Positions 18,995 to 21,394 of a stretch of 64,000 nt of DNA are shown here, piece by piece; position 1 is the stretch's first letter, and every line of letters starts with the position of its first letter. The translations under genes were made by a program, and so were the position numbers. The stretch is from a virus (lineage: Duplodnaviria; Caudoviricetes): positions 32,001 to 96,000 of IMG/VR virus record IMGVR_UViG_3300014204_013734. The stretch is one strand, 5' to 3'. The notes under the pieces were generated by a model. It was not told the origin of the DNA. It ran no database searches and saw nothing but the letters and a program-made list of their open reading frames with translations.

Positions 18995-19023
18995 CGGCTT
19001 GGTTTCTTTTCCTGTTCGGTAGT
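18995..19023 (+). promoter_or_regulatory. phage promoter motif CGGCTTGG-N15-GGTAGT
   Basis: exact motif upstream of the Y RNA/Ro unit. Confidence 0.8.
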
Positions 19024-19086
19024 ATGCGCGTGAAGCAGATTTTTCAGTGAAGCAGCTTCGGGTATAAGCAGAAGGTCTTTGAAAAA

Positions 19087-19156
19087 TGTCGGGGTGTGCA
19101 GTTTTCGGATACTTCATTGTCAAGAAAATACCGAAAACGATCAGTTGACCCCGACA
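19087..19156 (+). ncRNA. minimal Y RNA (Y1)
   Basis: terminal stem TGTCGGGGT/ACCCCGACA; shared GTGCAG..CGGATACTTC..TACCG..TTGACC motif. Confidence 0.65.
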
Positions 19157-19166
19157 ATCGTTCTTT

Positions 19167-19243
19167 GCTTCCAGGGTGCAGAATGCGGTTACTCCAGACT
19201 TGTCATCTGATCCCGTACCGTATTTGACCGATTGCCTGGAGGC
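19167..19243 (+). ncRNA. minimal Y RNA (Y2)
   Basis: stem GCTTCCAGG/CCTGGAGGC; GTGCAGAATGCGGTTACT..TACCGTATT. Confidence 0.65.
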
Positions 19244-19251
19244 TCAATTCG

Positions 19252-19404
19252 TGAAAGTGAAGGCGGTGTGCAGATGTGCGGTTACTTCACATTTGGGGTG
19301 GGAGGTCGTGGGTTCAAGTCCCACCTTGGCCTTCGGGTCAAGTAGCTCAGTCGGTAGAGCGCCAAAACGTTACCGTCATCGCCTGTTGATCGCCTTCACT
19401 TTCA
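19252..19404 (+). ncRNA. yrlA: YrlA-type Y RNA with tRNA-like module (Y3)
   Basis: long terminal stem; permuted order T-arm, acceptor-like hairpin, D-arm (TAGCTCAGTCGGTAGAGC). Confidence 0.85.
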
Positions 19405-19422
19405 AGTTGATCAGGTTTCCTG

Positions 19423-19562
19423 TAACCCGGGTGTGCAGAATGCGGTTACTTCGGAAAAAATCTGGATATGGGGGTTCAAATCCCTCTGGAAGCGCAAGTT
19501 TCCATCGTCTAATGATAGGACACCAGATGATAAAGTCCGCATCCGATTTTTGACCTGGGTTA
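19423..19562 (+). ncRNA. YrlA-type Y RNA with tRNA-like module (Y4)
   Basis: same motif; T-arm GGGGGTTCAAATCCCTC, TGGAAGC/GTTTCCA hairpin, D-arm GTCTAATGATAGGAC. Confidence 0.8.
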
Positions 19563-19594
19563 ATTTCCACCCTTACCTCAAAAGGAGGTGTGCC

Positions 19595-21394
19595 TTGAAC
19601 TTCAGTAAGAAGACGAAAACGGAAGCGGCTGTATCGGTCACCAACAAGGCTGGCGGGAAAGGCTATCGTGCCTCCTCGGCTTTGGACGCCCTCATCATGA
19701 AAGTGGGGAAGCCTGGATTTTCCGAACCCACTTACTACGGCGATCCCCAGGAATCCATCATGAAGAAAATGGGGGACCTGGAAGTCAACGTGGAAAACTT
19801 GACCGAAGAGGCAGTATCCATCCTTGAGGACATTGTCCTGGCGGTCAAGGATGCCGTGCACAGCAAGAAGCAAGACGAGTTGGCGGATGTCCTCCGTCTA
19901 GCTTGTTACCTGCGCAACGAAAACAAGATCAGGATGACCCCACAGGTCATTCTGGCCATGTGTTCAAAGATTCCGGCACTCCAACACCTGTGCCGGCTGT
20001 ATGCCCCGAAGATCGTCGTGCGGGCGGACGAAATCAAAGAAGCCTTTGCGGCTGCCCGCTTCCTGTTCAACCCGGTTTCCAAAGATGACAAGTACGGTCG
20101 TGCGTCCCATCATGGGACCATTTCCAAGTCGCTGAAGAAGGCTCTTGGGGATTCCTTCTCCCGTTTCCCGGAACGGGACTTCCTCAAGTGGGCAGGCAAG
20201 GGAGACATCAGCTTCAAGGATGTCCTCCTGATGTGCTATCAGGCGTTTGACGGAAAGTCCAGACCCGCCAATTGGCCAGTCAGTCCCGCCATGTGGCGAT
20301 GGTTGGTGTACGACGAAGTCAGTGAAGCCGTTCCCCAAGCTTTGGCTTGGGAACAGTTGAACAAGCTGGCTACCTGGGGTGAGGAAGCTCGTGAATTGGT
20401 CCGGAAGTCCGGGGCTACGTGGGAAGTCATTGCTTCCAAGTTCGGCGGATCCACCGATCCGAAGCAGGCTGCGGAAGTGTGGGAATGGCTTGCGACGGCA
20501 ACGACTACGGACGGAAACAAAACACGCCGTGTCATGCCTTATCAGGCAACCTTGATGAACCTGCGCAACTTCGCGGAAAAGGGCGTATCCAACAAGGCCA
20601 AGAATGAAGTAGCCAAGTTCTTGGTTGAAGCGGCTCCCCATTCCCGCATGTTGCCGATGCAATTCATGTCGGCGAGGAAGGCCGTTGAAGACCCCTTGTT
20701 CCAGAAGGCTATTGCAATGGCCATTGACGCCACTGCGGATAGTCTGCCGGGGCTGCTTGGGTCTACGGTCGTGGCAGTGGATACTTCGGGGTCCATGGAA
20801 ACGCCTTTGGTCCAACGTCAGAATACATACCGCGGCAAGACCCAGAATCCCATGACGGTGAAAGAAGCGGCGTGTCTGCTCGGGGCCATTTGTTACCGCA
20901 AGGCGGAAGGATGGGCCATTATCGGGGCACTGGCGTCAGGTTGGTCTCAAATCAAGGTCAGCCAAACTTCATCCGTCTTGGACGTGGCCAACATTGTCCA
21001 CGAACGTAACGTTGGAGCCGGAACTAACCTGGGGGACCTGTTTGCTACCCTCAAGCAACAGAAGACGATGCCTGACCGTATTATCCTTCTGACCGACGGT
21101 CAAAGCTGGATGGGCGAACGTTCCTGTTATTACGGGAGCACCAGCGGTTCCTGCAACGACAACATCAAGGCATACCGGTCGGCGGGGTGGACCGGGCACC
21201 TGCATGAAATCCACATGGTTCCTTACGAAACCACGGCGTCCGAACCCGACAAGAAGTGTCACGTGTTTTCCAGTTATTCCGAAAATCTGGTCAACATGGT
21301 GCGAGCTGCAGAAGGGCTGGAAGCCGAGTCCGAAAAGGTGGACACCTTCAACGTGGAAGCCTTCAAGGCTGAAATGCGAAAGCTGTATCCGTAG
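19595..21394 (+). CDS. rsr: Ro60/Rsr TROVE-vWA RNA-binding protein
   Basis: AGGAGG RBS + TTG; FSEPTYY, VRADE, MPYQATLMNLRN, SRMLP, VDTSGSM, LTDGQ. Confidence 0.88.
   Translation: MNFSKKTKTEAAVSVTNKAGGKGYRASSALDALIMKVGKPGFSEPTYYGDPQESIMKKMGDLEVNVENLTEEAVSILEDIVLAVKDAVHSKKQDELADVLRLACYLRNENKIRMTPQVILAMCSKIPALQHLCRLYAPKIVVRADEIKEAFAAARFLFNPVSKDDKYGRASHHGTISKSLKKALGDSFSRFPERDFLKWAGKGDISFKDVLLMCYQAFDGKSRPANWPVSPAMWRWLVYDEVSEAVPQALAWEQLNKLATWGEEARELVRKSGATWEVIASKFGGSTDPKQAAEVWEWLATATTTDGNKTRRVMPYQATLMNLRNFAEKGVSNKAKNEVAKFLVEAAPHSRMLPMQFMSARKAVEDPLFQKAIAMAIDATADSLPGLLGSTVVAVDTSGSMETPLVQRQNTYRGKTQNPMTVKEAACLLGAICYRKAEGWAIIGALASGWSQIKVSQTSSVLDVANIVHERNVGAGTNLGDLFATLKQQKTMPDRIILLTDGQSWMGERSCYYGSTSGSCNDNIKAYRSAGWTGHLHEIHMVPYETTASEPDKKCHVFSSYSENLVNMVRAAEGLEAESEKVDTFNVEAFKAEMRKLYP

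What the first reader, a model, noticed from the sequence alone, without database searches (positions are those of the whole stretch)
18995..21394. Four tandem Y RNAs (two minimal, two tRNA-mimicking) upstream of a phage Ro60
Seen: between a phage promoter and the TROVE gene lie four hairpin RNAs sharing GGTG(TG)CAG..CGG(T/A)TACT..CCG..TTG. Y3 and Y4 carry a circularly permuted tRNA module (T-arm, closed acceptor-like hairpin, D-arm) with different sequences. Y1 and Y2 keep only the stem module. Known: YrlA RNAs have this architecture and lie next to rsr. Inference: four structurally distinct partners for one Ro could give a modular RNP, tethering nucleases or acting as decoys for tRNA-targeting defences. 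The six-frame ORF starting at 19433 hides Y4; the real start is probably TTG at 19595.
Basis: partly seen in the sequence, partly recalled or inferred. Interest (0 to 1): 0.8.

Follow-up and report, generated by a model that had tools for sequence, protein, structure and literature searches.

The report
Four Y RNAs beside phage Ro60
A giant phage carries four small RNA genes in front of its gene for the ring-shaped RNA-binding protein Ro60; they are real but belong to a known partnership, and such rows of copies are common, the one fresh point being that the tRNA look-alikes of this family often keep an anticodon-shaped arm that the papers I could read call a variable arm.

Summary
Confirmed. 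Four RNA units (19087-19156, 19170-19240, 19252-19404, 19424-19561) share one handle: outer stem, internal loop with GUGCA, 8-bp stem, (U/A)UAC. The motif occurs nowhere else in the window and the stems covary in relatives. Y3 and Y4 carry permuted tRNA modules with 7-bp closed acceptor stems; Y4's D loop has GA for GG. The gene starts at TTG 19595 and folds like Ro60. This is a member of the known Rsr/YrlA system. Four copies is ordinary: 62 of 74 viral Ro loci have 1-8 units (21 have four or more), actinobacterial loci 1-5, and two of the closest relatives have only minimal units. Added here: in 22 of 25 permuted viral units the hairpin before the T arm has a 7-nt loop (U33 19, purine 37 22) with varied triplets, so the published 'V arm' looks like an anticodon arm. 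Y3 fits this weakly, Y4 does not. Most likely function: Ro-bound gates and tethers for RNA decay or tRNA repair (the phage has RtcB). Expression and binding are untested. The scan noted similar Ro/RNA arrays in many other genomes.

The parts
18994..19025 (+). Promoter-like element, ACGGCTTGG-N14-CGGTAGTAT
   Evidence: Same 18 fixed bases and spacing at three places in the 381-kb genome; not scored by the sigma-70 scan; function inferred
19074..19085 (+). boxA-like antitermination signal just before Y1
   Evidence: Only match to G(G/T/C)TCTTTGA(A/C)AA in the genome; likeness to boxA from my own knowledge; not enriched before arrays in relatives (6 of 62 against 3 on the other strand)
19087..19156 (+). 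Y1, minimal Y RNA (70 nt): 9-bp outer stem, GUGCA loop, 8-bp inner stem, AUAC, 3-bp hairpin with 8-nt loop
   Evidence: (z -3.7)
19170..19240 (+). Y2, minimal Y RNA (71 nt): 6-bp outer stem, GUGCA loop, 8-bp inner stem, UUAC, 4-bp hairpin with 7-nt loop CUUGUCA
   Evidence: (z -1.3); 18 nt of the handle identical to Y4
19252..19404 (+). Y3, tRNA-like Y RNA (153 nt): handle; possible anticodon arm 19286-19302 (reads UUG, or UGG one base on); T arm 19308-19324; 7-bp acceptor stem closed by UUCG 19325-19342; D arm 19345-19360; G15:C48 Levitt pair
   Evidence: Rfam YrlA 38.4 bits, E 7e-7; helices and z -4.7; 22-nt spacing to the T arm as in relatives. The anticodon hairpin itself has low predicted probability (0.03-0.11)
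19424..19561 (+). Y4, tRNA-like Y RNA (138 nt): handle; 6-bp open anticodon-stem-like helix (19460-19465 with 19523-19528); T arm 19470-19486; 7-bp acceptor stem closed by GCAA 19487-19504; D arm 19507-19521 with GA for GG; A15:U48 Levitt pair
   Evidence: pair probabilities 0.97, 0.70, 0.97, 0.86 and z -3.6; no Rfam YrlA hit
19583..19588 (+). Ribosome-binding site AGGAGG, partly held in a short hairpin
19595..21394 (+). Ro60/Rsr gene (599 aa, TTG start): TROVE helical ring plus vWA domain with metal site D396, S398, S400, T477, D501
   Evidence: Pfam TROVE 46.5 bits; profile hits 9kop E 1e-57, human, Xenopus and Deinococcus Ro; model pLDDT 85.9, Foldseek top 12 all Ro60; alignment
21469..21510 (+). 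Intrinsic-terminator-like hairpin after the Ro gene
   Evidence: 16-pair stem plus T run; one such site is within chance for the region, so position is the only support

Best explanation
A phage Rsr/Y RNA operon. One transcript from the promoter at about 19000 covers Y1-Y4 and the Ro gene (inferred) and is trimmed to four RNAs (inferred from Deinococcus and M. smegmatis). Ro binds each by the common handle, one RNA per ring (inferred). The handle is the selected constant; the bodies are exchangeable. Minimal Y1 and Y2 work like YrlB/Yrn2, as gates or short tethers. Y3 and Y4 present a nuclease-resistant tRNA shape that brings Ro to enzymes that handle tRNA-like or damaged RNA: host PNPase (the record shows no RNase PH/PNPase domain) or the phage's own RtcB ligase. 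The likely benefit is to protect or repair the phage's 35 tRNAs and other RNAs during infection. Shown here: anatomy, covariation, link to the Ro gene, Ro fold. Not shown: expression, processing, binding, partner enzyme.
For: Handle only at this locus. Same handle upstream of Ro in 62 of 74 viral loci and 72 of 80 actinobacterial loci; core motif counted 202 times upstream on the sense strand against 33 on the other strand. 75 of 155 strict cores have a perfect 8-bp partner against 7.6 +/- 2.9 when arms are swapped between units. Within a locus the internal loop is shared (identity 0.65 against 0.38 between loci) while bodies are not (0.29 against 0.28), as expected if one cognate protein reads the loop. 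The published ET08 YrlA has the same handle and scores 37.4 bits, like Y3. Precedent: Rsr pull-down of YrlA and YrlB from one precursor (PMC4201824); phiLo Ro60-Yrl complexes bind and slow host PNPase in vitro (PMC12135203). Phage encodes RtcB in this window, an Rnl2-type ligase, a CCA/poly(A) polymerase domain and Thg1.
Against: No expression or binding data. The 5' motif is GUGCAG, not the published GNCGAA, and this Ro clade has Tyr where other Ro proteins have the His of the HPxP motif; by my alignment that His is the H187 needed for Y RNA binding in mouse Ro60 (PMC11277228). Binding must therefore rest on a co-evolved interface. RtcB lies 15.7 kb away on the other strand, so no operon link. 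One close relative (L088) has no unit in the 494 nt held upstream. The partner enzyme is argued from precedent only.
Confidence: 0.6

Rival explanations
1. Anticodon decoy or sensor library. The tRNA-like units are complete permuted tRNAs, opened between D arm and anticodon arm, that display anticodon loops on Ro to soak up or report host anticodon nucleases, with RtcB resealing them.
For: Viral permuted units: 22 of 25 have a 7-nt hairpin right after UUAC; U33 19, pyrimidine 32 18, purine 37 22; over all units 37 loops carry U33 plus purine 37 against 2.7 +/- 1.6 in shuffles. Actinobacteria: 59 units, U33 57, purine 37 56, 21 different triplets, 16 of them on the one UUCCA stem. Loop shape is kept while the triplet changes.
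Against: In this window only Y3 has such an arm, its register is ambiguous (Pro UGG or Gln UUG) and its predicted probability is 0.03-0.11. Y4 has an A-run instead. Two close relatives have no tRNA-like unit. Real tRNA genes (35) would be simpler decoys. The loop could be kept for folding or modification (U36-A37-A38 is common), and the sequences are not independent.
Confidence: 0.17
2. Redundant copies. All four are Ro ligands that do the same job (stabilise and gate Ro); number and bodies drift by duplication and capture of neighbouring tRNA pieces.
For: Copy number runs from 1 to 8 and 26 of 62 viral loci have no tRNA-like unit by my classifier; L084 and L089 have only minimal units; Y2 and Y4 share 18 identical handle bases; Y4 has lost a D-loop G; the locus sits in a tRNA array.
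Against: tRNA tertiary signatures (T loop, Levitt pair, 7-bp stems with UUCG and GNRA caps) are intact in Y3 and mostly in Y4; 32 of 62 loci mix both types; anticodon-loop signature is conserved across phyla.
Confidence: 0.15
3. Cis-acting leader. The four handles stay on the ro mRNA and let Ro regulate its own synthesis.
For: Units lie between promoter and gene; weak TTG start; ribosome-binding site in a hairpin.
Against: Units lie downstream of the gene in phiLo and crAss001; known Y RNAs are discrete species; tRNA bodies are not needed for this.
Confidence: 0.05
4. Permuted tRNA precursors that are matured into working tRNAs.
For: 7-bp acceptor stems; M. smegmatis YrlA with a 7-bp stem is cut by RNase P and gets CCA (PMC4201824); phage has ligases and a CCA-type domain.
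Against: The stems are capped by stable 4-nt loops; acceptor stems in relatives run from 0 to 9 bp; no splicing-type cut is known to remove the handle; the phage already has Pro(UGG) and Gln(UUG) tRNAs.
Confidence: 0.03

Closest known systems
Bacterial and phage Rsr (Ro60) with YrlA and YrlB (Chen et al. 2014, PMC4201824; Rfam RF02553; structure in Wang et al. 2018, 10.1101/312249)
   Same: Ro gene on the same strand within 0.6 kb; T arm before closed acceptor stem before D arm; UUAC matches the YUAY element; Levitt pair kept; tRNA-like and plain-hairpin RNAs side by side; Y4 has the Salmonella-type open anticodon stem. Handle differs from the actinobacterial GGUGCGCAG by one base.
   Different: 5' motif is UGCA, not CGAA; scores stay below the Rfam cut-off (so do ET08 YrlA and all 20 actinobacterial loci tested); four units, two with full modules (3 of 62 viral loci have two or more by my classifier); Y4 lacks one D-loop G; Ro has Tyr215 at the usual His.
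Thermus phage phiLo Ro60 with Yrl1/Yrl2 (Hu et al. 2025, PMC12135203; PDB 9KOP, 9L5Y)
   Same: Phage Ro60, best structural and profile hit; no phage PNPase; basic residues K141, K142, R169 of phiLo align with K181, K182, K208 here.
   Different: 17% identity; the published RNAs were picked upstream by CGAA and are not tRNA-like; I find two canonical handle units downstream of the phiLo gene instead.
Deinococcus radiodurans Rsr, Yrn1, Yrn2 and RNAs a, b, d (RYPER)
   Same: Several small RNAs upstream of rsr, polycistronic with tRNA, one tRNA-like and one plain hairpin; 3' strand ends UUGACC in Y1 and Y4 as I recall for animal and Deinococcus Y RNAs.
   Different: Yrn1 has D, anticodon-like and T arms in tRNA order and a metazoan-type helix; a unit of that order is in relative L085, not here.
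DUF2828 Ro-like proteins with ACAGCAA-handle RNA arrays
   Same: Ro-shaped phage protein beside an array of RNAs with one handle and tRNA-like bodies.
   Different: Different protein family and handle; this locus is true TROVE (PF05731) with the YrlA-type handle. Not tested here.

Membership tests
Ro60/Rsr protein | TROVE HEAT-repeat ring (PF05731) | tested here: met
   Pfam 46.5 bits over cut-off 23; Foldseek E 2e-15 to 9kop, top 12 hits all Ro60
Ro60/Rsr protein | vWA domain with DxSxS...T...D metal site | tested here: met
   D396, S398, S400, T477, D501
Ro60/Rsr protein | Y RNA-contacting residues of the outer helices | tested here: inconclusive
   K181, K182, K198, K208, D209 kept; the usual His is Tyr215 in this clade and varies in the wider subfamily
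YrlA Y RNA | Within 4 kb of Ro on the same strand | tested here: met
   34-508 nt upstream
YrlA Y RNA | Long stem from 5' and 3' ends with an internal loop | tested here: met
YrlA Y RNA | 5' motif GNCGAA(N)G as published | tested here: not met
   All four read GUGCAG. The position varies across the family (CGUA 29, UGUA 25, UGCA 20, UGAA 14, CGCA 9, CGAA 9 in viral units; CGAA 62 and CGCA 59 in actinobacteria), so these are variants of the Y RNA handle, not literal matches
YrlA Y RNA | YUAY element after the upper stem | tested here: met
   UUAC in Y2-Y4; AUAC in Y1, a common family variant
YrlA Y RNA | T arm, closed acceptor stem, D arm in permuted order | tested here: met
   Y3 and Y4; absent from Y1 and Y2, which are YrlB/Yrn2-like
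YrlA Y RNA | tRNA elbow bases (D-loop GG, T loop UUCRA, Levitt pair, U8-A9) | tested here: inconclusive
   Y3 meets all; Y4 has GA for GG and U8-C9, keeps T loop and A15:U48
YrlA Y RNA | Rfam RF02553 gathering score 69 | tested here: not met
   Y3 38.4, others no hit. Weak test: the published ET08 YrlA scores 37.4 and none of 20 actinobacterial loci reaches it
Y RNA (functional definition) | Expressed as discrete RNA and bound by Ro | not testable with these tools
   needs RNA data and pull-down
YrlA Y RNA | Pseudouridine 55 and dihydrouridine; RNase P cut for 7-bp stems | not testable with these tools
   U55 present in both; 7-bp stems present but capped by 4-nt loops
RYPER (Ro-Y RNA-PNPase) or rsr-yrlBA-rtcBA repair system | Partner enzyme in the complex or operon | tested here: inconclusive
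   No RNase PH/PNPase domain in the record (record about 72% complete); RtcB 15.7 kb away on the other strand

The most novel reading that the evidence does not exclude
YrlA-type RNAs are whole circularly permuted tRNAs whose 'V arm' is a true anticodon arm with a fast-changing triplet, and phages and bacteria keep rows of them on Ro as baits or sensors for anticodon nucleases; Y3 is this phage's Pro/Gln bait. The structural half (anticodon-shaped arm in the family) I put at about 0.8; the bait function, which the probability below refers to, is much less sure.
Probability: 0.15. Interest if true: 0.75.

Novelty: new member of a known kind. Interest (0 to 1): 0.4.

Why it matters
The locus itself adds one more phage Ro60/Y RNA operon, with a shifted handle sequence and a matching change in the protein, useful for asking how Ro reads its RNA. 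The family survey matters more: the Rfam model misses most members, rows of three to eight RNAs are common (six or seven in CcrColossus, five in phage G), and the arm described as variable has anticodon-loop marks. If that arm folds as an anticodon arm, the open question of what the tRNA module of bacterial Y RNAs is for becomes testable with anticodon nucleases, modification enzymes and RtcB. It also suggests that the phiLo study may have missed two canonical RNAs downstream of its gene. I could not read the two Sim and Wolin reviews (2018, 2020), so part of this may be in print.

Tried and rejected
Single-protein scan of viral contigs found nothing; the close-clade alignment found no locus in genome contigs and one already known in metagenomes. 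DNA pattern scan gave 83 single matches that I took as chance and did not use. phmmer against solved structures found nothing; the profile did. My first unit finder required a 3' UUG and missed most relatives, because that strand covaries with the locus. Putting the permuted pieces back in tRNA order and running ARAGORN does not discriminate (39 of 51 called, 32 with the arm shuffled), so it is not used as evidence; the Y4 call there used an invented loop and means nothing. Y3 and Y4 bodies match no tRNA of this phage closely. Sequencing runs: no RNA holder was listed, so no reads were laid. T4 Rnl1 family search rang nowhere, controls included, and shows nothing. Four papers were not held and Chen 2014 has no supplement held. 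boxA enrichment before arrays was tested and not found. No complex prediction was sent, since the link is through RNA. Rejected readings: coding use of 19433-19594 (homologs start at 19595), chance repeats, CRISPR-type array (no constant repeat, covarying stems).

Full report
Setting. The window is bases 32001-96000 of a 381-kb virus record; the same protein lies on a 444-kb contig whose copy of the array is identical. The locus sits inside an array of 35 tRNA genes, after tRNA-Glu (18906-18981) and before tRNA-Ile (21516).

Observation. Each unit is an outer stem, an internal loop with GUGCA on the 5' side and 8-9 nt ending UUG on the 3' side, an 8-bp inner stem, then (U/A)UAC and a body. Z-scores are -3.7, -1.3, -4.7 and -3.6. 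Y3 and Y4 hold T arm, 7-bp acceptor stem capped by UUCG or GCAA, and D arm, with Levitt pairs G15:C48 and A15:U48; Y4's D loop has GA in place of GG. Y3 hits Rfam YrlA at 38.4 bits. A promoter-like element at 18994-19025 recurs three times in the genome, a boxA-like 12-mer precedes Y1, and a terminator-like hairpin follows the gene. The gene starts at TTG 19595: AGGAGG lies 6 nt upstream and homologs begin there.

Protein. Pfam TROVE scores 46.5 bits. A 50-sequence profile hits phiLo Ro60 at 1e-57 and human, Xenopus and Deinococcus Ro. The model (pLDDT 85.9) finds only Ro60 structures in its top 12. The vWA metal site is complete. Basic residues that contact RNA in phiLo Ro60 are mostly kept, but the His of the HPxP motif is Tyr215 in this small clade; by alignment this is the H187 whose mutant loses Y RNA binding in mouse (PMC11277228). 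The closest relatives are 41-48% identical.

Relatives. L084 has three minimal units, L089 four minimal units, L085 seven mixed units, L090 at least two tRNA-like units. Minimal units from this clade give 13 of 16 pairs with two-sided changes. In 80 viral loci with a Ro gene plus these, the core was counted 202 times upstream on the sense strand, 33 on the other strand and 76 downstream. After removing duplicates by hand, 62 of 74 loci have 1-8 units and 21 have four or more. Because pairing was a filter there, I tested it apart: 75 of 155 strict cores have a perfect 8-bp partner, against 7.6 +/- 2.9 with arms swapped. Within a locus the loop is shared and the bodies are not. Actinobacterial loci carry the same handle, GGUGCG(A/C)AG, in 72 of 80 loci, mostly two or three copies, up to five. 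Named phages do too: CcrColossus six or seven, phage G five, crAss001 about four downstream, ET08 at least two. The published ET08 YrlA scores 37.4 bits and none of 20 actinobacterial loci reaches the Rfam cut-off, so Y3's low score does not exclude it. Four copies is ordinary.

An anticodon-shaped arm. In tRNA-like units the distance from the UUC after the handle to the T stem peaks at 21-22 nt, the length of a 5-bp stem, 7-nt loop and 4-5 nt variable region. Of 25 viral permuted units 22 form a 7-nt hairpin there, with U33 in 19 and a purine at 37 in all 22; over all units 37 loops show both marks against 2.7 +/- 1.6 in shuffles. In actinobacteria 59 units give U33 57, purine 37 56 and 21 triplets, and the triplet changes on an otherwise constant stem. 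These sequences are related, so the counts overstate independence. Chen 2014 calls this hairpin the V arm; Wang 2018 says YrlA lacks the anticodon loop and treats long inserts as class II variable loops. My reading is a complete tRNA opened between D arm and anticodon arm and hung on the Ro handle, which fits their proposed origin from a tRNA dimer. Here Y3 has the 22-nt spacing with a loop that reads UUG (Gln) or, one base on, UGG (Pro, the better loop signature), but its predicted probability is low and a rival helix costs only 1.3 kcal/mol more. Y4 clearly takes the Salmonella-type open stem (0.97).

Mechanism. Most likely one precursor yields four RNAs that each load on a Ro ring by the shared handle. 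Y1 and Y2 gate or tether like YrlB; Y3 and Y4 offer a tRNA shape to an RNA decay or repair enzyme. Host PNPase is the precedent (phiLo complexes slow it in vitro, PMC12135203) and no RNase PH domain is in this record. The phage also has RtcB with an intein, an Rnl2-type ligase, a CCA/poly(A) polymerase domain and Thg1; Ro in jumbo phages was already listed among RNA repair parts (PMC7824862). All steps from transcription on are inferred. Rivals: anticodon decoys (0.17), redundant copies (0.15), cis leader (0.05), tRNA precursors (0.03).

Membership and novelty. The protein is a Ro60. The RNAs meet position, architecture, YUAY and (Y3) elbow features of YrlA-type Y RNAs. They fail the literal GNCGAA motif and the Rfam cut-off, so I file them as variant members of the wider bacterial/phage Y RNA class and not as RF02553 hits. 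Phage Y RNAs, mixed pairs and several RNAs before rsr are published (PMC4201824). I found no paper on long arrays or on the anticodon arm, but two key reviews were not available. The scan's notes hold many similar Ro/RNA arrays in other genomes; I used them as leads only.

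Noticed in passing
L174 (Thermus phage phiLo), about 2980-3060 and 3170-3260: Two canonical handle units lie downstream of the Ro gene, over annotated ORF phiLo_25, and none upstream, where Hu et al. 2025 picked Yrl1/Yrl2 by CGAA alone. The cognate RNAs may have been missed.
   Followed up: partly
L172 (CcrColossus) 1050-2290; L176 (phage G) 1500-2240; L177 (crAss001) 3300-3950: Arrays of six or seven, five and about four handle units in cultured phages, usable as test systems.
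   Followed up: partly
L085:1880-2010: A handle unit whose body has D arm, anticodon-like arm with a 6-nt loop and T arm in normal tRNA order, like Deinococcus Yrn1.
   Followed up: no
window 19116-19122 and 19200-19205: Y1 and Y2 both carry UUGUCA in the loop of their small hairpin although their stems differ.
   Followed up: no
window 19030-19072: GTGAAGCAG twice (19030, 19047) and TAAGCAG once (about 19066) at 17-19 nt spacing between promoter and boxA-like site; possible operator or antitermination sites.
   Followed up: no
window 19574-19590: A 6-bp hairpin covers the ribosome-binding site of the Ro gene, which also has a TTG start; low or regulated translation is possible.
   Followed up: partly
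window 21398-21510: GGGGACGCC occurs twice (21443, 21482) among several hairpins between the Ro stop and tRNA-Ile, one inside the terminator-like stem.
   Followed up: no
window 37052-39538 (-): RtcB RNA ligase with an intein after residue about 50.
   Followed up: partly
window 14282-15130, 13315-13899, 26316-26888, 18200-18760, 24721-25083: Thg1, a macro-domain-like ORF (by eye), a short RF1-like release factor and HNH-type ORFs in and near the tRNA array.
   Followed up: no
viral and actinobacterial loci L091-L265: Anticodon-like loops often have U36-A37-A38 (20 of 37 viral, 38 of 59 bacterial have U36, against 11 of 35 real tRNAs of this phage), the context for t6A modification. Samples are not independent.
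   Followed up: partly
L085:4147-5355 and L088:2255-3475: In two close relatives a ParB-domain gene directly follows the Ro gene.
   Followed up: no
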